From: Eledone cirrhosa
Lineage: Eukaryota
NCBI GenBank assembly: GCA_964016885.1
Contig: OZ024741.1
Coordinates: 175,026,001-175,090,000 of the forward strand
DNA: 64,000 bases
Reading direction: 5' to 3'
Part shown: positions 1,825 through 63,917 of the stretch, one piece after another
Layout of the letters: each line of letters begins with the position of its first letter
Numbering within the stretch: position 1 is the stretch's first letter
Program-made: the position numbers and the translations under genes
Notes under the pieces: model-generated
Database searches by the model: none
What the model was told of the DNA's origin: nothing
Seen by the model: the letters and a program-made list of their open reading frames with translations, nothing else

Positions 1825-4800
1825 CTACAGAACAATGTAGAGAGAAGGCCCATTTACACGAACCATTCTCGCTTCTTTCACCCACCTTTCATAAAACTGT
1901 CTGGGGCCAAGCACTTCTCTCTCCATCCTGATCCTTCTTCCGAAGTGGTATCGGAAGAAGTAAACCAGGTGATGGCCGGAGAGAAAGTCACCCGACCTCA
2001 GACCTTTCAGGTGCGTCCACCACACAACCTCTTTCATCATGGCTATTACGCACAGAAAGACCGCCTCTGCATCGTTTCTGAAGGGAGGCGGCGGCTTGAT
2101 GTTCACCACAGACTCGGCGGTTAATCGAATCGGCGCCACACGCGACAGCAGTCGTTCGATGTAGCCCCACAGATCGGCAACGCCCGGGAAGTGTACCAGT
2201 GCATGCGCAACGGTTTCCTCGTCGCGCACGCATCTGGGACAGATCTTTTTCGCGGGATCCCTGCCCGGGCGCCCGTATCTGTAGAGCTTTTCTCGAACGG
2301 GCAGAGCCCCCCGGTAACACTGCCAGGCTAGGGACCTCTGGAAGTTGTCCATGGGTCCCGGGCCGAAAGTTCTACCGAACAGGCTGGCCAGTTCGTCCTC
2401 CTCCATGCCTAGCGACTCTCCAAGGGTGTCGTCGCCCTGCTAGCCACCAGCCCTCTATAGAATGTCGAGGTGGATTCTCCACTGACAGTCGGGTCCGCTT
2501 GCCAGATAGCCGTGAGCGCCTGGGCACACTCGGTGTGCCAGTTGCCCAGTTTTCTCGGTCTTTGCTTCACCCAGGATTGCAGCTCGGTGAGCGAGACGAG
2601 CTGTGGGAAGGCTCGCCTCACAAACGGGGCCCACACCGGCTGACCGGTGAGGAATACCTGTAGATGCCGTAGCCTTAATGCGTGCCTACGCATCAACAGC
2701 CACGGCATACCCAGCCCTCCTTTCGAAGGGTGCTGGCAGCAGATGGATCTCCTCACCTCACCATGGGAGGCCGCTTCTTCCAGAGGAACTGGAAGAGCAT
2801 GCGTTCCATGATGGTGATCTTTTCCTTGGGGCAAGGCACGACGGTCAGGCGGTAGCAGATGACGGACGCTATGTAAGCGTTCGTCACCTCCGCCCGACCT
2901 TTCAGTGATAGTTTGCACTTGGCCCACTTCTGGGTCAGCGCAAACACCCTGCTCGTCACCTCGCCCCAATTCTTCTCCACCTGGAGGTCCGGTCCGAACC
3001 AGACCCCGAGCAGCTTCACCGGGCCCTCCGTCCACCGCCCGACGACACCGTCTAACGGCATCGGTTTGCCCCTCCACGTTCCGAGTTGCAAACCGACTGA
3101 CTTGTCCCGGTTCAGCCTAGCCCCCGTCAGCCTTTCGTATTCCTCCAGTAGGGTGGCGATCGCCCCGATTTCCGAGGCGTCCGCCACCATTACTGTTACG
3201 TCGTCGGCATAGGCCGAGACCGCTTTGTGCAATCCCGGTTCCAGGGGTATGCCCCGCAGCAACTCCAACTTCCGCAGCAGTGGCTCGAGAGTCAATACGT
3301 ACAGAAGGGAGGAGAGGGGGCACCCCTGTCTGATGGACCGGGTGATTTGAAACGGCTCCGAGAGGTAGCCGTTTACTTTAATCCTAGAGTAGATGTTGCC
3401 ACTGTGCATGGCAGAAATCCAGCGCCTGAAAACGTGTCCGAAGCCCGCCGCCGCTAGCACCGCATCCAGGTAACCATGGTCGACCCTATCGAACGCCTTA
3501 GATTGATCCAAGTTGATCAGGGCCCCACCAAAGCCGGGTTCGTTGCCAACCCTCTCTATGATGTATCGCATGAGGTGGAGGTTGTCGTGAATGGACCTGG
3601 ACGGGATAGCGCATGTCTGCGCGTCTCCCACCAAACCACCCACCACAAGCGCCAACCTCTTCGCCAACACCTTGGCCAAAATCTGTAACTCTGCATTCAG
3701 CAGAGTTATGGGCCTAAAGTTACTTAAGTCGTCCCCCTTGCTCTCGTCCTTCCTCACTAGCGTGACCACGCCCTTGGTCACAGAACAGGGAATTCTCCCG
3801 TTCTGTTGCCAGTTGCAATAGACAGCCTCGAGGAGTTCGGAGAACAAGACCGGCATAGCTAAATAAAGTTCGTATGGTAAACCATCGAGACCCGGGGATT
3901 TGCGTCTGCTGCATTGGCTGAGCGCTTCCCCGATTTCAGTGGCTGTGATTGGCCTTTCGCAGCACTCCGCTTCGCCGCTCGAAAGACGCGGTAGACCGTC
4001 GAGGTATGGACCGAAGTCCACATCCCCGTCCGGCCCCCCGCCACCTCCGAACAGTCGAGCAAAGTGCCTTTGAAAGGTCTCGCACATTCGCTCAGGTTCA
4101 AGGATCACCCGTCCATCCTGGTCTCGCAAAGACCGAATGGTGGATTTAATCCCACTCTTGGCTTCTGTCACGCGGGCCCAGCTAACAGCTTTGGTCCCCT
4201 CGTTTCCTAAAGCACGTATTTTACTTCGGACAACGCAGCCTTCGTGCTTCGCGTCAAAGAACTGGCTCAACGCCGTTCTCGCCGCTAACACTCTGGCTAC
4301 GTCTCCGCTCCTAATCGCCTCTTCTAGTTTATCTGTTAACTCCCTTTCCTTCCTATTTCTATTCGCCGCTAGTTCCTTACTGTAACCTATCGAACTTACT
4401 CTAATCTCTCTCTTTAGAGATACCCACCACCTACTGTTGACGATCGCTCCCGTCAACCGCATCTTAACTAAGCTACTAATCCGGTTCCTGTAATCTTTCT
4501 TTGCCGGCAAGGACAAGTTCATCTTCCAGTAACCGGGACCCTGTCTATGCGTTCTATCAAGGTTGACCACGTAGGTCACTAATTTGTGATCTGAATAGCC
4601 AACCATGATCAATTCTGGACAACTAAATACGTCCCTATCCTTACTCCTAACCAAAAACCTATCTAGGTACGATCTAGATTGTCCACTGCGGTTTGCCCAG
4701 GTCCAGGTTGGCGCAGTTGGACAATCTAGTCGAAATCTATCGACCAGGTCGAATCGATCGAGTAACCCCTTGAGGCTGCTACACCCCCCTCTATCGGGAC

Positions 4801-5259
4801 AGGCCCCTGCATAGTCCCAACGCGCATCTAGGATTCCATTCCAGTCCCCCACTAAAAGCAGGGAACGCGACGTTCCTAGAAAAGTCTCCAGACGCTGGAA
4901 GAAGTCGGATCTTTCAGCCCCGAAGGGGGCATAAACACCGACCAGTCTGAAAGCCCCGCCTTCACCGCCTCCGACGTCCAGCACCAGTAATCGACCCCCC
5001 GGGTCCGAGTGAACAATCTGTACGTCGAGAGCCAGACGTTTATCCAGCAGTACGGCAACCCCCCCCCCCCGCCTCCGGGTTGACAGAGAGATGCGTGCAT
5101 CTCAAAGTCATCGAAGGCGGGAGCCAGCTGTCGCACGCTGCTGATCCGACTCTCGCAAACAACCATCACATCTATACTTCGTGACCTGAGGTCACTTAGT
5201 AGCTTTGCTTGCTTCCAAGCTGAGCCCAGGCCACGCGCGTTCAAACAGCCAACTCTCAA
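1825..5259 (-). pseudogene. Tx1 ORF2 (APE endonuclease - reverse transcriptase - zinc finger), frameshifted
   Basis: Motifs CLNARGL, GVYAP, LVGDWN, YLDRF, SDHK (APE); PGLDG, FRPITLLN, KAFDRVDH, IRQGCPLS, AYADD (RT); CPRC..EETVAH. Split over ORFs 4876..5259, 2753..4984, 2409..3077 and 1825..2406. Confidence 0.9.
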
Positions 5260-5688
5260 TTGATCTATTTTGGTGTTGAAAGTGAAGAAAGAAAAGCACC
5301 TACCTCTCCGGGTTGTGTGATTTCCATGGCGTCAGGTGTGTTGGGTGGAGGGATGTTTTGTGGTGGTGTGGGGGTGCCCGAGTGTGGTGGGGTTGGGGTG
5401 TTTGGAGTTGTGTCAGGGAGAGGGGAGGTTATGGGGAAATCTTTCAAGAGGACGCGATTTAACGGTTTTAAACAGGGGGGGGGGGACTCACGTCCTGTCT
5501 AAATTGTTCTTTTAAGGAACGATAAAGGTCCAGAGGGACCTTTATCATTTTTAAATGGGTGAAGTTCTCTGTTGAGATAAAGTTTGGCCCTTCGGTCTGC
5601 ACCAAAGGGCTATTGTTTATTAATTTAAACAGTTTTTTGTTTTCTTTATTTATATATGTGTATTGCAATGTCTTTTTTTGTGATGCTG

Positions 5689-24990: not shown

Positions 24991-25003
24991 TGGAATTAAT
25001 ATG

Positions 25004-28000
25004 ATATACACCATTAATGTAGTTCATGTAGACATATGCTCCATTAATGTAGTTCATGTAGACATATGTCCCATTAATGTAGCTCATGTAGACATATACA
25101 CCATTAATGTAGTTCATGTAGACATATACACCATTAATGTAGCTCATGTAGACATATACACCATTAATGTAGCTCATGTAGACATATACACCGTTAATGT
25201 AGTTCATGTAGACATATGTCCCATTAAAGTAGTTCATGTAGACATATGTACTATTAATGTAGTTCATGTAGACATATGTACTATTAATGTAGTTCATGTA
25301 GACATATGTCATATTAATGTAGTTCATGTAGACATATGTACTATTAATGTAGTTCATGTAGACATATGTACCATTAATGTAGTTCATGTAGACATATGTA
25401 CTATTAATGTAGTTCATGTAGACATATGTACTATTAATGTAGTTCATGTAGACATATGTCCAATTAATGTAGTTCATGTAGACATATGTCCAATTAATGT
25501 AGTTCATGTAGACATATGTACTATTAATGTAGTTCATGTAGACATATGTACTATTAATGTAGTTCATGTAGACATATGTCCAATTAATGTAGTTCATGTA
25601 GACATATGTCCCATTAATGTAGTTCATGTAGATATATGTCCTATTAACGTAGTTCATGTAGACATATGTCCTATTAATGTAGTTCATGTAGAGATATGTC
25701 CTATTAATGTAGTTCATGTAGACATATGTCCTATTAATGTAGTTCATGTAGACATATGTACTATTAATGTAGTTCATGTAGAGATATGTCCCATTAATGT
25801 AGTTCATGTAGACATATGTACTATTAATGTAGTTCATGTAGACATATGTCCAATTAATGTAGTTCATGTAGACATATGTCCTATTAACGTAGTTCATGTA
25901 GACATATGTCCTATTAATGTAGTTCATGTAGATATATGTCCTATTAACGTAGTTCATGTAGACATATGTCCTATTAATGTAGTTCATGTAGACATATGTC
26001 CTATTAACGTAGTTCATGTAGACATATGTCCTATTAATGTAGTTCATGTAGACATATGTACTATTAATGTAGTTCATGTAGACATATGTACTATTAATGT
26101 AGTTCATGTAGACATATGTACTATTAATGTAGTTCATGTAGACATATGTACTATTAATGTAGTTCATGTAGACATATGTACTATTAACGTAGCTCATGTA
26201 GACATATGTACTATTAATGTAGTTCATGTAGACATATGTTCCATTAATGTAGTTCATGTAGACATATGTTCCATTAATGTAGTTCATGTAGACATATGTC
26301 CTATTAATGTAGTTCATGTAGACATATGTACTATTAACGTAGTTCATGTAGACATATGTCCCATTAAAGTAGTTCATGTAGACATATGTCCCATTAAAGT
26401 AGTTCATGTAGACATATGTACTATTAATGTAGTTCATGTAGACATATGTACCATTAATGTAGTTCATGTAGAGATATGTACTATTAACGTAGTTCATGTA
26501 GACATATGTCCTATTAATGTAGTTCATGTAGACATATGTACTATTAATGTAGTTCATGTAGACATATGTCCTATTAATGTAGTTCATGTAGGCATCTACA
26601 CCATTAATGTAGTTCATGTAGACATATGTACTATTAAAGTAGTTCATGTAGACATATGTCCTATTAATGTAGTTCATGTAGATATATGTCCTATTAATGT
26701 AGTTCATGTAGACATATGTACTATTAACGTAGTTCATGTAGACATATGTCCCATTAAAGTAGTTTATGTAGACATATGTACCATTAATGTAGTTCATGTA
26801 GACATATGTACTATTAATGTAGTTCATGTAGACATATGTACTATTAATGTAGTTCATGTAGACATATGTACTATTAATGTAGTTCATGTAGACATATGTA
26901 CCATTAATGTAGTTCATGTAGATATATGTCCCATTAACGTAGCTCATGTAGACATATGTACTATTAATGTAGTTCATGTAGACATATGTACTATTAATGT
27001 AGTTCATGTAGACATATGTCCTATTAACGTAGCTCATGTAGACATATGTCCCATTAACGTAGCTCATGTAGACATATGTACTATTAATTTAGTTCATGTA
27101 GACATACGTACTATTAATGTAGTTCATGTAGAGATATGTCTCATTAAAGTAGTTCATGTAGACATATGTCCTATTAATGTAGTTCATGTAGACATATGTA
27201 CTATTAATGTAGTTCATGTAGACATATGTACTATTAATGTAGTTCATGTAGACATATGTTCCATTAATGTAGTTCATGTAGACATATGTACTATTAATGT
27301 AGTTCATGTAGACATATGTACCATTAATGTAGTTCATGTAGACATATGTCCCATTAACGTAGCTCATGTAGACATATGTCCTATTAATGTAGTTCATGTA
27401 GACATATGTACTATTAACGTAGCTCATGTAGACATATGTACTATTAATGTAGTTCATGTAGACATATGTCCTATTAATGTAGTTCATGTAGACATATGTA
27501 CTATTAATGTAGTTCATGTAGACATATGTCCTATTAATGTAGTTCATGTAGACATATGTCCTATTAATGTAGTTCATGTAGACATATGTACTATTAATGT
27601 AGTTCATGTAGACATATGTCCTATTAATGTAGTTCATGTAGACATATGTCCTATTAACGTAGCTCATGTAGACATATGTACCATTAATGTAGTTCATGTA
27701 GATATATGTCCTATTAACGTAGCTCATGTAGACATATGTCCTATTAACGTAGCTCATGTAGACATATGTACTATTAATGTAGTTCATGTAGACATATGTA
27801 CTATTAACGTAGCTCATGTAGACATATGTACTATTAATGTAGTTCATGTAGACATATGTCCTATTAATGTAGTTCATGTAGACATATGTACCATTAATGT
27901 AGTTCATGTAGACATATGTCCCATTAACGTAGCTCATGTAGACATATGTCCTATTAACGTAGCTCATGTAGACATATGTACTATTAATGTAGTTCATGTA

Positions 28001-28232
28001 GACATATGTCCCATTAATGTAGTTCATGTAGATATATGTCCCATTAATGTAGTTCATGTAGATATATGTCCTATTAATGTAGTTCATGTAGACATATGTC
28101 CCATTAATGTAGTTCATGTAGATATATGTCCCATTAACGTAGCTCATGTAGACATATGTACTATTAATTTAGTTCATGTAGACATACGTACTATTAATGT
28201 AGTTCATGTAGACATACGTACTATTAATGTAG
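25004..28232. repeat. 30-bp minisatellite, about 107 copies (consensus ATTAATGTAGTTCATGTAGACATATGT[A/C]C[T/C])
   Basis: Perfect 30-bp phase throughout; accounts for ORFs 25001..28240(+), 24938..27067(-) and 27089..28147(-). Confidence 0.97.
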
Positions 28233-28289
28233 ATCTCTAGGAGTGTCACCTTGATACAATGTGGTAAATATAGGTACAACTAATTCTTC

Positions 28290-29643: not shown

Positions 29644-29920
29644 GCAGACACACACATAACACATATATATAAACACGTTTGTGTATATACACATACATAC
29701 TTGCATGCATACGTACATGTATGTATGTATGCATGCATGTATGCACGCATGTATGTATGTTGAAAAGTGTATAATAACGTTATAATAACGTTATATCTGT
29801 ATAAATACAGAGTGTGTAACCGAGACTACACCAGCGTGTATAAACATATACAGATATCTATGAGGGAGGTATGTACACATAAGAAAGTACGAATTTCCCT
29901 GTAAATTGAAAAAATGATAA

Positions 29921-29970
29921 ACACTTTTAATCGATTTTCGGATCTAATTGGACCCTCATCAGAAGGTGTG
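29921..29970 (-). ncRNA. Minimal type I hammerhead ribozyme motif
   Basis: Minus strand reads cacctt CUGAUGA GGGUC caauua GAUCC GAAA AUCGAU UA aaagug. Confidence 0.75.
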
Positions 29971-29981
29971 TATAATAACGT

Positions 29982-40401: not shown

Positions 40402-40501
<100 letters not shown>

Positions 40502-40502
40502 C

Positions 40503-40714
40503 ATATAGAAACTACTTCTACAGGACTAAAACTATTTCATTAGTTTGAAATCATCAGGAATGGATATTCCTGAGGATTTCAAACGAATGAAACAGTTCTA
40601 GTCCTGTAGGAGTAATTTCTATATAAGGTATATATGTATCTTCCCTACTAATATATTGTGTTCCTTATTTAACTAGGGTTTCTTTCCGTTCCCATTCGAA
40701 AGACCATTCTTAAT

Positions 40715-40761: not shown

Positions 40762-40848
40762 GTAAAAGGTAAACAGAAATAACAACACAATCGGTACAGT
40801 ATATGGAAGGTATATATTAGGTTAACGCTTGATATAGCAGGAAGAGGG

Positions 40849-40884
40849 TCTTAACGTTTCGGACGCTAGTCCTTCATCAGAAGA
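40849..40884 (-). ncRNA. Minimal hammerhead ribozyme motif
   Basis: ucuu CUGAUGA a GGAC uagc GUCC GAAAC GUU aaga; loopless palindromic stem III. Confidence 0.75.
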
Positions 40885-41045
40885 AAGAATGAGAAATAAA
40901 ATAGATTAAGGGGACGGGCGGGATGGAATTGGAAAAAAAAAATATATATAGTATGTGTGTTTGTACATCTATATAATATATATCTATATGTAGATAGTAT
41001 ATACCTATATCTATATAGTATGTGTGTCTATATATATGTATATAT

Positions 41046-41617
41046 ATATCAACTAGAAATAGATTGACATATATATATATATATGAAATAAACATATGGA
41101 ACAATCACAGGGAATAATTTGTAAAGTATGTACGCACACATAGCTAGGTAGGTAACTAATTAAAGTTTAACTAGAACTTCAAATATAGATACCTTTTAAA
41201 ATGATTAATCTCCTTTGTATATATTTCTTTAAATAAAAAATATATTTCACCAATTCACTGGGATGACGCTGTGCGATGTGTGTATTTTTTTAAAATGCAA
41301 CACGTGGTTCAAGTCATTCACAGATTTGCATTTGCTTTGTAAACGCAGATGGTTGGATCTTCTCCTTTGGTGACCATCCAGGATTTGACTACTGTTATTT
41401 ATTGATTAATTGGTGAAATATATTTTTTATTTAAAGAAATATATACAAAGGAGATTAATCATTTTAAAAGGTATCTATATTTGAAGTTCTAGTTAAACTT
41501 TAATTAGTTACCTACCTAACTATGTGTGCGTACATACTTTACAAATTATTCCCTGTGATTGTTCCATATGTTTATTTTATATATATATATATATGTCAAT
41601 CTATTTCTAGTTGATAT
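41046..41617. repeat. About 210-bp near-perfect inverted repeat (41046-41255 / 41408-41617) with about 150-bp spacer
   Basis: The arms read as reverse complements with only about 2 mismatches. Confidence 0.9.
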
Positions 41618-42219: not shown

Positions 42220-42553
42220 GGTGGATTGGCAGTATTGGTAGAGGGTTGGACGCCATGCTTTCCAGCATAGTTACGTCCCTTTATGATCTGAGTTCAAATC
42301 CCGCCGAGGTTGACTTTGCCTTTCATCCTTACGGGGTCGATAAAATAAAGTACCAGTAATGCACTGGGTAATTGCTGGCCTTGTGTCTAAAGTAGAAACA
42401 ATTATTATTGACTGTGAAAAAACTAAAATAATTGTTTCTACTTTAGGCACAAGGCCAGCAAGTACCCAGTACATTACTGGTACTTTATTTTATCGACCCC
42501 GTAAGGATGAAAGGCAAAGTTAACCTCGGCGGGATTTGAACTCAGAATGTAAA
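42220..42553. mobile_element. Two family-1 SINEs tail-to-tail (42220-42400 +, 42430-42553 -)
   Basis: The plus copy is flanked by the TSD attattattgactgtgaaa; the minus copy is 5'-truncated. Confidence 0.88.
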
Positions 42554-42872
42554 GTATATATATATTATATATGTGTGTGTATTGTGTTGAGAAAATCGAT
42601 GTCGCTATAGTGTAAAGATGCCGAAATCTCTCGGTATTCATTGCCTTATTAGATTTTCCTAACAGTGTTTAGCAAACTTACAAGTGTATCTTAACTTGAT
42701 TGTTTTTACTAGAATGTTATACATTATATGCTATAATGAAATAGAATTTAATTAAAAAAAAAAAAAAAAAAAAATTAATCCACCGGTATGTTTTCAATTT
42801 TCTTAAGTTTTCAACACAATTCAACAGTACATCTAATCAATTAATTAAATTCTTCTTCTTCTCCTCATCGTC

Positions 42873-43358: not shown

Positions 43359-43750
43359 GTCAGTTGTATTAAAATACTTAATTTTATCAAATCGTAGTTC
43401 AAATATTATGGTGTCAGTTGTATTAAAATGCTTAATTTTATCAAATCGTAGTTCAAATATTATGGTGTCAGTTGTATTAAAATGCTTAATTTTATCAAAT
43501 CGTAGTTCAAATAATATGGTGTCAGTTGTATTAAAATACTTAATTTTATCAAATCGTAGTTCAAATAATATGGTGTCAGTTGTATTAAAATACTTAATTT
43601 TATCAAATCGTAGTTCAAATATTATGGTGTCAGTTGTATTAAAATACTTAATTTTATCAAATCGTAGTTCAAATAATATGGTGTCAGTTGTATTAAAATG
43701 CTTAATTTTAATGCAACTGACACCATATTATTTGAACTACGATTTGATAA
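43359..43750. repeat. 54-bp minisatellite, about 6.5 copies, ending in an inverted partial unit
   Basis: Unit gtcagttgtattaaaat(a/g)cttaattttatcaaatcgtagttcaaata(t/a)tatggt; 43714-43750 is the reverse complement of part of the unit. Confidence 0.92.
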
Positions 43751-44293: not shown

Positions 44294-44358
<65 letters not shown>

Positions 44359-44488
44359 TTAGTTATGTAATAAACAACATAAGATAATTATTTCATTTAC
44401 CAGTGGTTTCTTGAAGTCAGATGTTATATCTGTCTTCAGTCGTCAGAATGAATAAATTACATGGTGTAAATAAATAACATGTTATTTA

Positions 44489-44549
44489 TTCATTCTGACG
44501 ACTGAAGACAGATATAACATCTGCCTTCAAGAAACCACTGGTAAATGAA
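44489..44549 (+). ncRNA. Hammerhead ribozyme motif (mirror copy at 44392-44452, minus) in fold-back cassette 44359-44646
   Basis: UUCAUU CUGACGA cUGAAG aCAGAU auaac AUCUG cCUUCAa GAAACC acu GGUA AAUGAA; all three stems pair. Confidence 0.82.
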
Positions 44550-44697
44550 ATAATTATCTTATGCTGTTTATTACATAACTAATAAGCTCTGTAGCCTACA
44601 TAGAGCACTCATTTTTCCTGTACCTTTCCGACGGAAATACTTCATTTATATATATATATATATTTAATTAGAAAGTGAACAACACAATATATAATTA

Positions 44698-44767
44698 CTC
44701 CATTACCAAAGGTTTCAGGACCCTCGAAAATTTTTTATTATACGTCTAGATCGTTCGTCAGACAGAG
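44698..44767 (-). ncRNA. Hammerhead-like motif between 30-bp inverted repeats (44665-44694 / 44771-44800)
   Basis: cucugu CUGACGA ...GAAACC uuu GGUA auggag; stem II is degenerate. Confidence 0.6.
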
Positions 44768-44859
44768 ATGTTATATATTGTGTTGTTCACTTTCTAATTA
44801 ATTAGCTCTTTCTATAAATAGAGCACTCTTTTTTCCTTTACCTTTTCTTCGGAATTATC

Positions 44860-45123
<264 letters not shown>

Positions 45124-45150
45124 CCTAACTCGTCCTATGGACTGAGTGCT

Positions 45151-45211
<61 letters not shown>

Positions 45212-45235: not shown

Positions 45236-45317
<82 letters not shown>

Positions 45318-45319
<2 letters not shown>

Positions 45320-45940
45320 AAAACAAATAACGAAACGAAATTAAATTTCGTTTCGTTTGTAACTCACTTTTGTATGACTGACGCTTATGTATACGTGTGT
45401 GTATTCATATGCATACTAGTATTTCAGTATACTAGTATTTCAGTATACATATGTGGATGTACATTTTTAACTTAATTGTTTAAGCGTCAGTCATACAAAA
45501 GTGAGTTACAAACGAAACAAAATTTAATTTCGTTTCGTTATTTGTTTTTATCGTCTCCGTTGAACCGGTACGTACTCACACTCTATGCAAATTAGTCTGC
45601 CCACTACTAATTTTCATAGAAAAGGCATATAACGATATGTGCTTTTACGATTCTCCAGAAAGGCCGGTAGATAGGTAAATATTGCTGATAAGTTGTAACA
45701 ACAACGAAACTAGTTCAATATTCCTTGTCTGGCTTTCTGGAGAATAGAGGAAAGGTGTTTCCTCAAAAACCAGTATGACTCTAAAAACCGGTTTGTCTGT
45801 GTGTTTACATACAGAATAGCTGGCCACTCACAGTAAAGTGACCAGTGAAAGACTTGGTACATCTACATATGTATACGTGTGTGTATTCATATGCATACTA
45901 GTATTTCAGTATACATATGTGGATGTACATTTTTAACTTA

Positions 45941-45945: not shown

Positions 45946-46038
<93 letters not shown>

Positions 46039-46052
46039 TAAAAATCGACCAC

Positions 46053-46143
46053 GGCGCCAAGCAGTTTCGACTTGTGTGTTCAGCAATCCCTTTCAACCCA
46101 TGAAAAGCTTGCTTGAACACACAAGTCGAAACCTCTTGGCACC
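46053..46143. repeat. 30-bp inverted repeat cassette between microsatellites
   Basis: ggcgccaagcagtttcgacttgtgtgttca pairs with tgaacacacaagtcgaaacctcttggcacc. Confidence 0.75.
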
Positions 46144-46260
46144 GCTATCTGAGTTTTACATATCGCTATACCTACTCTGCATCTCCCCATGTATTGAGTA
46201 CTCCCATGATTAATAGTCTCCTCGGTCTCAGCACCGCAGACCCCCCCTCTCTCTCTCTCT

Positions 46261-47870: not shown

Positions 47871-48289
47871 GTCTATCTATCTATCTATCTATCTGTCTGT
47901 CTGTCTGTCTGGTTGGCTGGACTGGCTGGCTGGGATGGCTGGCTGAGATGGCTGGCTAAGATGGCTGGCTAAGATGGCTGGCTGGCTGTATCAACAACCA
48001 TTATCGGTATGTTTGTTAAACGAGTAATTAGACGAATAAACATATTTTAATGTATATATATATATACATTATATGAATAAGATTTCAACACATGCATACT
48101 ACTTAGAGTTTCAAACTTCAACTAGCATAGGATATAGATATTCTGTATCTGCCAGTTTAGTTATCTTTAGGAAAACCAAGATGGCTGAATGTTATTTTAT
48201 ATGAGATCTCATCATGATTATATCACCCTGAAAGATCATAAAGAGGACTTTAATAACAGACGTACTTGTAGTTGTAGATTAATTAACTG

Positions 48290-49930
48290 CGCTAGAACCG
48301 AAATGGGATTAGCCAGTTAGAAGATATTAAGAAAGGTAAATACACATATTAAGAACAATACTAACCTATTACAGTGGAAGAATACTTCTTCAGCGATAGG
48401 TTAGATAAATAATTGTTTCTACTTTAGGCACAAGGCCAGCAATTACCAGTGCATTACTGGTACTTTATTTTATCGACCCCGTAAGGATGAAAGGCAAAGT
48501 CAACCTCGGCGGGATTTGAACTCAGATGGTAAAGGGACGTAACTATGCTGGAAAGCATGGCGTCCGACCCTCTACCGATACTGCCAATCCACCGCCCTTA
48601 GGTTAGATAAATAATATTCCAGAAATATATAAGGCCAAGTTCACACAGAGGTTTACCTCTTTATCCCTAGATCATTATTAGTTAAGGCTCTAGAGTTCGC
48701 CCGCCGATTTGGTCCAATTACTGACCAAGAGATAGAAGTCATTACGCACACTATTAAGACGATCCTATTTACTAATGAGGTTACATGGGTTAAAAATCAA
48801 GTCCAGAGGATCCCTTCGATATATCGATGGGATCTTATGATAGAGCAGATGTGTGCGATTTGATTGGACTTTTTATTCTCCATACCATTAAAAGAAAATT
48901 CCCCAACCACGCCGTAATGACGGTTTGGCAGTATTCCATAACTGTAATGTGCATTCCATGGATAATTTCCGCAAAGAACTACTACACACATTTAATAACT
49001 TAGAACTTAAAATAACCGTAGAAACTAAACTAACCAATGACAACTTCTTGGATGTAAACTAGGATTTTGCTACAGGTATCCACAAACCCTATCAAAAGCC
49101 TAACGAAACATTAAAATACATTAATAGAGGATCCTGCCAAGCTTCATCTTTAAAAATCTCGTCACTTATATTAACCGTAGGATCTCCACCTTATCTTCCT
49201 CCAGGGAAATTTTTAATTGGACAGTAAAGCACTATAATAAAGCACTCACGGATAAAATTAAATATATACCTAATACCGCCACTCAAAATACACGCAAAAA
49301 TAAGAAAAGAGAGGTCATTTGGTTTACAACACTCTTCTCCATAGCAGAGAAGACTAACATAGGTAAAATATTCTTAGAGTTATTAGATAAACATTTCCCT
49401 CCTGAACATAGTTATGTGAACATTTTCAACTGGCAGTCGGTGAAGATCAGCTACTCCTGTGGTCCTTCCATGAAAGCAAAAATTACATATAGAAATGAAC
49501 TTGATGTAAACCCGGGTTTTTCATGCAGGATAAAAGAAGAATACCCTCTGCAACAAAAATGTGACACGAAGTCAGTCATATATGAAGCCACTGTCACACC
49601 AACTGTAGCCAATTACATAGAAAGCAGAGAACGATATGTGTGTATGACACCGGATTGGTTAATATAACAGTACGACTCACATATCATATATTTCAAACAT
49701 CTAGAAATGAGGACGTCCACGGCACTGGCAAAATCCTGTGTGGGACCTGAAGGATAAAGAGATTCCATATACAATTAATTGGAATATTCTCAATAATTCA
49801 CGCTCCTACAGGAAAAGAACGAAGAGGTGTTCATTTTGTTTAAATGAAACATTTAGAATATTACTTATTCTGAAGTCCCCCGAGAAACATTTAAATACAA
49901 AAAAAAAAAAAGAATTGTAGGCCCGGTTGC
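48290..49930 (+). pseudogene. Decayed Penelope-like element ORF (RT + GIY-YIG endonuclease)
   Basis: Translated fragments LLQWKNTSSAI, FDISMGSYDRADVCDLIGLFIL, RNDGLA (from YRDDGL), NFLDV, KPYQKPNETLKYIN, KISYSC, CDTKSVIYEATV, WDLKDK..YTINWNIL, RCSFCLNE. Confidence 0.85.
48414..48598 (-). mobile_element. Family-1 SINE inserted in the Penelope ORF
   Basis: Full copy with a 17-bp TSD taggttagataaataat. Confidence 0.92.
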
Positions 49931-63301: not shown

Positions 63302-63341
<40 letters not shown>

Positions 63342-63348
<7 letters not shown>

Positions 63349-63879
63349 TTAGTCCTTCATCAGTGATCTGCCAACCTTCATTGGCATTTCATCGCTTTAA
63401 AGACCATATACCTCCGGTTGGTGCGAGCAACGGCTAAAGAAAGTAGTTGGGACACGTAAATAAGGGGAACGAGCGAGACTGTAAACAATCAAAGATGGTA
63501 ATGCAACGAATCTCTCTCGTCTACGATTTCACAGAACTTATGTTCACCGATTTCAGGGACTTGACTCCTTCTTCCTACCGTTGGACCTGTGCGAAATTCT
63601 TTCCTTGTTCACATTTCGACCAGCTTTGATGGTCTTTATTCTCTCTCGTCCACGATTTCACAGAACTTATGTTCATCGATTTCAGGGACTTGACTCCTTC
63701 TTCCTCACTTTTCGTTGCATTACCATCTTTGATTGTTTACAGTCTCGCTCGTTCCCCTTATTTACGTGTCCCAACGACTTTCTTTAGCCGTTGCTCGCAC
63801 CGACCAGAGGTATATGGTCTTTAAAGCGATGAAATACCAATGAAGGTTGGCAGATCACTGATGAAGGACTAAATTTATT
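63342..63879. repeat. Fold-back cassette: 169-bp inverted arms (63342-63510 / 63711-63879) enclosing a 66-bp direct repeat
   Basis: The arms are reverse complements; the direct repeats are at 63511-63576 and 63640-63705. Each arm ends in CUGAUGAAGGAC (partial hammerhead core). Confidence 0.88.
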
Positions 63880-63917
63880 CATATGTAACCCATTTGCAAT
63901 CACGCAGCACGCCATGT

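What the first reader, a model, noticed from the sequence alone, without database searches (positions are those of the whole stretch)
44359..44646. Best-formed case: two back-to-back intact hammerheads in one 224-bp palindrome
Each arm encodes a full motif: stem I UUCAUU/AAUGAA, core CUGACGA, long bulged stem II, GAAACC-acu-GGUA. A transcript from either strand would contain one ribozyme and its antisense. That could give cleavage in both directions, or a long hairpin that blocks it or feeds siRNA production (inference).
Basis: partly seen in the sequence, partly recalled or inferred. Interest (0 to 1): 0.7.

Follow-up and report, generated by a model that had tools for sequence, protein, structure and literature searches.

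The report
Head-to-head Penelope retroelement end relic
The palindrome holds two mirror-image hammerhead ribozyme motifs that are most likely short leftover ends of a Penelope-like jumping gene, and any RNA read across it is predicted to zip into a hairpin that blocks both ribozymes, so it is likely an ordinary relic of a known kind.

Summary
44359-44582 is a 224-bp palindrome (arms 102/105 identical), and each arm carries a type I hammerhead motif (2 hits against a mean of 0.017 in 60 shuffles). 'Intact' is overstated: position 10.1/11.1 is a C·A mismatch and helix III is a weak, dimer-type stem.

The element is very probably a head-to-head, 5'-truncated insertion of a Penelope-like element (PLE) end module, probably Hydra clade:
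- It is a high-copy family whose copies end at two points, the arm end and the end of a one-sided 64-nt tail, each followed by (TA)n.
- 12 of 12 Hydra-type ORF ends fetched have a hammerhead core downstream, and 6 keep the same tail hairpin.
- L005 holds a 217-bp double-hammerhead palindrome 97% identical to an ORF-linked end.
- A model built only from those ends ranks this arm first in the window.

On either strand the antisense arm is transcribed first, and the hammerhead fold is predicted to cost more than 80 kcal/mol, so two-way cleavage of a read-through RNA is unlikely. No RNA data were obtained. Opposite-strand hammerhead pairs in PLEs are published (PMC4209133), and this scan noted similar palindromes before in another genome. 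Ordinary; low interest.

The parts
44296..44358 (.). (CA)n then (TA)n microsatellite, left target flank
   Evidence: sequence; (TA)n is the stated target of Hydra PLEs (PMC8557442 section 11)
44359..44463 (-). Tailless inverted arm: 5'-truncated copy of the PLE end module, ending at the family's short 3' end
   Evidence: family contigs end at 44578/44581 followed by (TA)n (table 7)
44392..44452 (-). Type I hammerhead motif, C3 at 44446, H17 at 44398
   Evidence: the hammerhead fold is the MFE of the isolated minus arm
44464..44477 (.). Junction spacer; a perfect 22-nt palindrome spans 44469-44490, centred on the CATG where the right arm begins
   Evidence: junction palindromes described in PMC3846280
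44478..44582 (+). Tailed arm: 5'-truncated copy of the PLE end module
44489..44549 (+). Type I hammerhead motif: stem I 44489-94/44544-49, core 44495-44501 and 44531-34, stem II 44502-44530 (C·A at its base), helix III 44534-44542, predicted cleavage after 44543
44583..44646 (+). 64-nt one-sided 'tail', opening with a 7-bp hairpin at 44586-44606 (GCTC...GAGCAC type) shared with Hydra-type PLE ends
   Evidence: (second family end at 44645)
44647..44663 (.). (TA)n right target flank; a target-site duplication cannot be resolved inside it
   Evidence: sequence
44661..44862 (.). Neighbour B, a related element with the same layout: tailless minus arm carrying a whole hammerhead (C3 44761), 34-bp plus arm carrying the related tail

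Best explanation
The 224-bp palindrome with its one-sided tail is most likely a dead head-to-head insertion of two 5'-truncated copies of the hammerhead-bearing 3' end of a Penelope-like retrotransposon, probably of the Hydra clade, and a transcript across it is predicted to fold into a long hairpin that keeps both ribozymes inactive. Shown: the anatomy, the high-copy family with two 3' end points, and the same end module and palindrome form attached to Hydra-type RT-GIY-YIG ORFs elsewhere. Inferred from published PLE biochemistry: the element's protein cut a (TA)n tract and began reverse transcription at two internal sites of an uncleaved RNA, one just before the tail hairpin (44581/2) and one at the end of the tail (44645/6). 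I favour (about 0.55 within this explanation) two cDNAs primed from the two target strands, both stopping 17-21 nt upstream of the hammerhead core and joined at a CATG with a short fold-back. The hammerheads are doubled as passengers; the pair is not a built device. The arms have since picked up separate substitutions.
For: (arm plus tail laid on 4 of the 15 listed runs): 2489 contigs in X1 and 4056 reads in X13 (another study, same species label); loose ends at 44578/44581 and at 44645, each followed by TA-type repeats in X1; 6 opposite-strand joints at different places in X13; one 185-nt contig of organism B holding a head-to-head pair; 13 loci with Hydra-type ORFs from 6 assemblies; 12 of 12 ORF 3' ends scored have a hammerhead core 97-200 nt downstream; 6 of 12 (3 assemblies) keep the GCTC...GAGC(A/G)C hairpin 54-71 nt after GAAA (window: 51); 4 others run into TA at 41-57 nt (window short end: 48). 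L009's 758-bp inverted copy stops just before the hairpin. L005:4597-4813 is a 217-bp double-hammerhead palindrome with a one-sided tail and TA flanks, 97% identical over 181 nt to the ORF-linked end of L011. Model R1, built from 7 such ends with no window sequence, ranks 44485-44617 first of 16 window hits, over the full model, 22.1 bits, E 0.0037 (rough). Literature: dual hammerheads 100-700 bp apart on opposite strands (PMC4209133); inverted 5'-truncated copy, one-sided tail and (TA)n (PMC8557442); head-to-head junction palindromes (PMC3846280); two RT start sites make the tail, both strands are cut and extended, and cleavage is not needed for insertion (PMC11167929). Folding.
Against: No ORF is joined to this family in the window or in the reads. 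The decayed Hydra-type ORF at 48207-49905 has no hammerhead end module found behind it, so the parent element is not identified. Direct blastn of the element to the 13 ORF loci gives only chance-level hits; the link rests on shared motif order and on a weak model score. The model's segments and the hairpin pattern were chosen after I saw the likeness. The tail is 64 nt, longer than the 30-40 bp in the papers. No target-site duplication can be resolved. X1 may be the source sample. The G10.1-C11.1 pair typical of PLE hammerheads is absent.
Confidence: 0.88

Rival explanations
1. Same PLE origin, but the mirror arm arose by fold-back self-priming of one cDNA at the junction palindrome rather than from two primed cDNAs.
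For: A perfect 22-nt palindrome sits at the junction. Self-priming was proposed for such junctions in PMC3846280. In L005:4597-4813 the tailed arm matches the ORF-linked upstream sequence further than the tailless arm, and in L009 the inverted copy is shorter at both ends, as a copy would be.
Against: In neighbour B the tailless arm has about 73 nt of 5' sequence, the whole hammerhead, that the tailed arm lacks. In this element the tailless arm continues 4 nt (ACAC) that match the family's upstream consensus and are missing from the tailed arm (table 7, 14 contigs, agreement 0.74; a 4-nt match is weak). Neither arm can then be a plain copy of the other, unless the palindrome centre was deleted later.
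Confidence: 0.33
2. The short palindrome is itself the mobile unit: a non-autonomous, retrozyme-like or MITE-like element copied whole.
For: High copy number. The junction in the organism-B contig and one X13 joint (44484/44491) lie near the same place as here. TA flanks on both sides.
Against: The other five X13 joints pair different places, and the family has two 3' ends. Neighbour B has unequal arms. Non-LTR retrozymes are defined as direct tandem repeats (10.64898/2026.07.22.740005); here there is one inverted pair. L005's palindrome is traceable to an ORF-linked end.
Confidence: 0.07
3. A selected bidirectional ribozyme device or hairpin-RNA gene: cleavage in both directions, or a purpose-kept siRNA source.
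For: Both cores are unbroken. Each isolated arm can reach the hammerhead fold. None of the 36 variant sites shown for the family falls in the 20 core and helix III positions (p about 0.006; 15 rows were not shown). A read-through RNA would be about 100 bp of near-perfect duplex, so small RNAs or editing as a by-product are plausible (inference).
Against: The antisense arm comes first on both strands and the fold costs more than 80 kcal/mol. Core conservation is a family trait from the mobile phase, not a trait of this locus. The arms carry 3 separate substitutions and the tail at least 1, as in neutral decay. At least four more inverted relics lie within 4 kb. Single metazoan PLE hammerheads showed no or only protein-assisted cleavage (PMC4209133; PMC11167929).
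Confidence: 0.03
4. An assembly or library artefact (fold-back chimera).
For: No listed contig piece spans the stretch; depth over 44464-44477 is low.
Against: The arms differ at 3 sites. At 44564 the left arm has the family base and the right arm a rare one; at 44524 the left arm has a base not among the family variants shown. The left arm ends exactly at a family-wide end point. The same form occurs in other assemblies.
Confidence: 0.02

Closest known systems
Inverted 5'-truncated insertions of endonuclease-positive Penelope-like elements (PMC8557442 Fig. 2 legend; PMC3846280)
   Same: Head-to-head inverted copies, palindrome at the junction, tail on one side only, microsatellite target, hammerhead near the 3' end
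   Different: Both copies are cut down to about 105 bp, with no ORF left; tail 64 nt instead of 30-40 bp
Hydra clade of C-terminal EN+ PLEs (PMC8557442 section 11)
   Same: Canonical-type hammerhead with helix III, (TA)n insertion; same order of hammerhead, short end and tail hairpin as in 6 of 12 Hydra-type ORF ends fetched; a decayed Hydra-type ORF lies 3.6 kb away
   Different: No direct sequence identity to the fetched ends; stem II longer (29 nt against 12-24) and closed by C·A (fetched: G-C in 9 of 12, U·U in 3 of 12); parent ORF not identified
Dual opposite-strand hammerheads of Schistosoma PLEs (PMC4209133)
   Same: Two hammerheads close together on opposite strands, long helix II, weak palindromic helix III suited to dimers
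   Different: Cores are 48 nt apart rather than about 100-700 bp; the G10.1-C11.1 pair is missing
Non-LTR retrozymes of animals (PMC7229834; 10.64898/2026.07.22.740005)
   Same: Short, non-coding, high-copy, type I hammerhead, PLE-derived
   Different: Retrozymes are direct tandem repeats that allow cis dimer cleavage and circular RNA; this is a single inverted pair, which cannot do that

Membership tests
Type I hammerhead ribozyme | Core CUGANGA, GAAA and UH in a three-helix junction with open helix I | tested here: met
   both arms
Type I hammerhead ribozyme | Paired base of stem II, usually G10.1-C11.1 | tested here: not met
   C·A at 44502/44530. Natural mismatches here exist (U·U in PMC3088659, and in 3 of 12 Hydra-type ends); one family loose-end consensus has U at 10.1, another C
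Type I hammerhead ribozyme | Rfam hammerhead model match | tested here: not met
   no hammerhead family matched the arms, E up to 1 and up to 10
Type I hammerhead ribozyme | Structure kept across family variants | tested here: met
   0 of 36 shown variant sites in the core and helix III; of 9 variants in paired positions 6 keep or restore a pair on their own, and G44507A is matched by C44525T as separate rows (linkage not shown); A44492T and T44513C break a pair
Type I hammerhead ribozyme | Self-cleavage after H17 | not testable with these tools
   needs in vitro transcription; no RNA reads were available
EN+ Penelope-like element insertion | Inverted 5'-truncated copy, head-to-head | tested here: met
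EN+ Penelope-like element insertion | Optional tail, with two family-wide 3' end points | tested here: met
   table 7: ends at 44578/44581 and 44645
EN+ Penelope-like element insertion | Hammerhead in the pLTR, sense towards the 3' end | tested here: met
EN+ Penelope-like element insertion | Upstream RT-GIY-YIG ORF in full-length copies of this family | tested here: inconclusive
   none adjoining in the window; the host genome is not held; shown only for analogous ends in other organisms
EN+ Penelope-like element insertion | Target-site duplication | tested here: inconclusive
   both ends lie in (TA)n
Hydra clade PLE | RWK, DKT and CxCX5C motifs in the encoded protein | tested here: inconclusive
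   met by homologues of the nearby decayed ORF (15, 19 and 19 of 21), but that ORF is not linked to this element
Hydra clade PLE | (TA)n target and canonical-type hammerhead | tested here: met
Non-LTR retrozyme | At least two direct tandem units, each with a hammerhead | tested here: not met
   no direct repeat of the arm in the window; tandem copies elsewhere in the genome were not testable
MITE | Fixed terminal inverted repeats at both ends, uniform internal structure | tested here: not met
   tail outside the inverted repeat, variable inversion joints, unequal arms in neighbour B

The most novel reading that the evidence does not exclude
Hydra-type PLEs carry a clade-wide end signal, a GCTC...GAGCAC hairpin 50-70 nt behind the hammerhead, with one reverse-transcription start just before it and one at the end of the tail. 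A dimeric PLE protein primes both target strands from these two sites at once, so the head-to-head palindromes with one tailed and one tailless arm are the footprint of twin priming. Both cDNAs tend to stop just upstream of the hammerhead, and each such insertion yields a ready-made hairpin RNA against its own family.
Probability: 0.4. Interest if true: 0.42.

Novelty: new member of a known kind. Interest (0 to 1): 0.17.

Why it matters
As a ribozyme device it matters little: the doubling follows from how Penelope-like elements insert. Its use is as a footprint of a mechanism that is still open. PMC8557442 names the formation of PLE tandem and inverted structures as unexplained. A tiny insertion with one tailed and one tailless arm, in a family with thousands of sequenced pieces, lets anyone with the genome count which arm extends further 5' and so decide between twin priming and fold-back. 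The shared tail hairpin gives a minimal candidate cis element for Hydra-clade reverse transcription. It is also a caution for genome scans: double-hammerhead palindromes in animal DNA are usually PLE ends.

Tried and rejected
Rfam: whole window and isolated arm gave only sub-threshold microRNA-type hairpin hits here, rejected as generic hairpin matches; no hammerhead match. Host genome: not held, so no genome-wide copy or junction count. Sequencing runs: no RNA holder listed; this says nothing about expression. Pattern scan of metagenome contigs: 2 hits (L001, L002), rejected as chance, since stem I does not pair beyond its first base and the context is unrelated. Viral contigs: 0 pattern hits and no relative of the ORF. 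Pfam: no hit on 6 fragments of the decayed ORF and only one weak RVT_1 hit among 7 full homologues, so its clade call rests on motifs. Direct blastn of the element against the fetched loci: chance level. The bacterial promoter and terminator scan does not apply to an animal genome and is not used, except that it marks the tail hairpin. An alternative core at 44502 (CUGAAGA) fails the descriptor. A relaxed core scan of the other inverted elements found no convincing hammerhead in those at 41046, 42279, 44971, 45317, 46030 and 63334. L013-L015 were left out of the 12 ORF ends because they lack the ORF's C-terminus, and two further C-terminal matches on the minus strand (L003, L011) and the inverted copy in L009 were not scored as separate ends. 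Look-ups in earlier findings by place, by sequence and by Hydra words returned nothing. Paper searches: 'hammerhead, Penelope, inverted, palindrom' (16), 'octopus, hammerhead ribozyme' (18), 'Hydra, Penelope-like, tail, stem-loop, pLTR' from 2021 (68) and 'Penelope, twin priming, inverted' (72) listed no paper whose title or abstract start describes the tail hairpin or twin priming in PLEs. I did not open any supplements; files S1 and S2 of PMC8557442 (Hydra consensus sequences and hammerheads) may already show the hairpin.

Full report
OBSERVATION. The window is AT-rich, microsatellite-rich DNA filled with retrotransposon remains. It resembles a cephalopod genome by my recall of its SINE, which I did not test. 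At 44359-44582 there is a 224-bp palindrome: arms 44359-44463 and 44478-44582, 102 of 105 bases identical, 14 nt apart. A type I hammerhead descriptor finds one motif in each arm (C3 at 44495 plus, H17 44543; C3 at 44446 minus, H17 44398) and a weaker third at 44761 minus. Under strict settings the window has 2 hits against a mean of 0.017 in 60 shuffles. The two hits are one motif duplicated, not two independent events. Rfam does not match the arm.

HOW INTACT. The catalytic core is complete. The base of stem II is C·A (44502/44530), there is a second mismatch at 44508/44524, and helix III has three pairs around a near-palindromic loop. Helix III does not fold alone but pairs between two molecules; an explicit dimer structure is 9 kcal/mol below two monomers. 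In the isolated arm, helices I and III form with probability about 0.2. PMC4209133 (parts 1-2 of 4 read) reports that such metazoan PLE hammerheads work as dimers, that a single motif showed no cleavage, and that G10.1-C11.1 is highly conserved. PMC3088659 (passages) and PMC7229834 (one passage) record natural U·U mismatches at that position. 'Intact' therefore holds for the core only.

GEOMETRY. The arms are head-to-head, so on either strand the antisense copy is transcribed before the ribozyme. Forcing the hammerhead fold costs 86 (plus) and 82 (minus) kcal/mol in the full RNA, against 2.8 and 1.2 in the isolated arms. In folds of growing plus-strand prefixes, 54 of 55 hammerhead bases are already paired upstream when H17 appears. 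These are equilibrium predictions, not kinetics. Cleavage in both directions would need transcripts that start in the 48 nt between the cores, and nothing here shows those.

THE FAMILY. I laid the right arm and tail (44464-44646) on 4 of 15 listed runs. X1 gave 2489 contigs and X13, from another study with the same species label, 4056 reads; X5 and X6, other organisms, gave 8 and 15 contigs. It is a high-copy repeat. In X1, copies end at 44578/44581 and at 44645, each followed by TA-type repeats: exactly the end of the inverted arm and the end of the tail. X13 shows six opposite-strand joints at different places (3-6 reads each), and one 185-nt contig of organism B holds a head-to-head pair with its junction near the same spot. 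Of the 40 variant rows shown (15 more hidden), none lies in the 20 core and helix III positions (p about 0.006 for 36 sites; weaker if hidden rows fall there), and most stem variants keep pairing. No variant at 44502 is among the rows shown, and one X1 loose-end consensus also has C there while the main X13 one has U, so the C·A pair looks like a subfamily trait. At 44564 and 44611 the window differs from nearly all family reads, and the left arm differs at two other sites, which fits independent decay after insertion.

LINK TO PENELOPE-LIKE ELEMENTS. A decayed ORF at 48207-49905 matches 43 proteins. Of 21 full-length ones, 15 have RWK, 19 DKT and 19 CxCX5C, the marks of the Hydra clade in PMC8557442 (section 11 read), which also inserts in (TA)n and has canonical hammerheads. 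An alignment of 17 homologues fetched 13 loci from 6 assemblies; these are probably host DNA in symbiont bins (inference from titles and microsatellites), and 6 of the 13 come from one assembly. All 12 ORF 3' ends scored have a hammerhead core 97-200 nt downstream. Six keep a GCTC...GAGC(A/G)C hairpin 54-71 nt after GAAA, and four run into TA repeats 41-57 nt after GAAA. In the window the hairpin lies at 51 and the short end at 48. The hairpin pattern occurs three times in 64 kb, two of them in this element and neighbour B; it appeared in 23 of 100000 shuffles of the stretch, but the pattern was chosen after the fact. L009's 758-bp inverted copy stops just before the hairpin. L005:4597-4813 is a 217-bp double-hammerhead palindrome with one tail and TA flanks, and its tailed arm is 97% identical over 181 nt to the end module 147 nt behind the ORF of L011. 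That is the finding's twin with its parent in hand. A covariance model from 7 such ends, with no window sequence, ranks 44485-44617 first among 16 window hits (22.1 bits, E 0.0037, rough), then neighbour B and the palindrome at 40490-40637. Against: there is no direct sequence identity to those loci, and no ORF is attached to this family in my data.

MECHANISM. PMC11167929 (parts 1-2 of 4 read) shows for a Poseidon PLE that the protein cuts and extends both strands of AT-rich DNA, starts reverse transcription at two internal sites whose spacing makes the optional tail, is predicted to be a dimer, and does not need hammerhead cleavage. I infer the same here: uncleaved RNA was copied from the two start sites. 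Both arms keep the whole hammerhead, which a 3' cleavage product would lack. For the mirror arm I favour two primed cDNAs, because in neighbour B the tailless arm has about 73 nt of 5' sequence that the tailed arm lacks, and here 4 nt. Fold-back self-priming, proposed in PMC3846280 (passages and discussion read), remains a strong rival: the junction has a perfect 22-nt palindrome, L005 and L009 fit it, and a later deletion of the centre could explain B. Arms in three of four pairs measured start within about 20 nt upstream of the core (shared extents 17, 4, 11 and 54 nt), too few to call a rule.

COMPARISON AND NOVELTY. It works like, and on the tested features belongs to, the inverted insertions of EN+ PLEs (PMC8557442, passages). 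Opposite-strand hammerhead pairs are in print. It is not a retrozyme, which needs direct tandem units (10.64898/2026.07.22.740005, part 1 of 5 read), nor a MITE. PMC13282606 (passages) lists Penelope families in an octopus genome and has no occurrence of 'hammerhead'. Earlier notes of this scan describe similar palindromes in a shark-like genome; they came after my reading and I did not check them. What I did not find in the listings is the shared tail hairpin or a twin-priming account for PLEs; supplements were not read.

VERDICT. A real feature and a new member of a known kind. Interest 0.17. The twin-priming and hairpin-signal reading has probability about 0.4 and would deserve about 0.42.

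Noticed in passing
window 44661-44862: Neighbour B: related PLE end with unequal arms; the tailless minus arm has a whole hammerhead (C3 44761), the 34-bp plus arm starts about 9 nt past the cleavage site and carries the tail.
   Followed up: yes
window 40490-40637 (tail to about 40715): Second, more decayed double-hammerhead palindrome (82% arms, cores 12 nt apart, stem I cut short) between (CA)n and (TA)n; third-best hit of model R1.
   Followed up: partly
window 48207-49905 (+): Decayed, frameshifted PLE ORF whose homologues carry Hydra-clade motifs; a SINE interrupts its 5' part and no hammerhead end module was found behind it.
   Followed up: partly
window 44971-45152: 153-bp palindrome (93%) with a one-sided extension that holds the GAGCACTC motif on the minus strand, pointing into the arm, the reverse of the layout in the finding; no hammerhead core found.
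   Followed up: partly
window 41046-41617, 45317-45551, 46030-46167, 63334-63887: Further local inverted repeats beside (TA)n or other microsatellites; the last ends both arms in a half hammerhead core. Probably more PLE relics.
   Followed up: partly
window 42220-42554 and 43359-43750: A SINE copy and a 54-bp tandem array that each end in an inverted copy of themselves, so inversion is not limited to hammerhead-bearing elements here.
   Followed up: no
window 29920-29972 (-) and 40835-40890 (-): Two solo minimal hammerhead-like motifs of the PLE type, with very short helix III.
   Followed up: partly
window 45667-45738 (+): Sub-threshold Rfam Hammerhead_HH9 match (35.7 bits, gathering 52) with an altered core, inside another short inverted repeat.
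   Followed up: no
window 25001-28240: Tandem array with a 30-bp period, about 108 registers, open in one frame for 1079 codons; probably a minisatellite.
   Followed up: no
L003-L015: Several bacterial genome bins contain eukaryote-type PLE ORFs and microsatellites, probably host DNA contamination; L005 alone holds two double-hammerhead palindromes (4597-4813, 5286-5631).
   Followed up: partly
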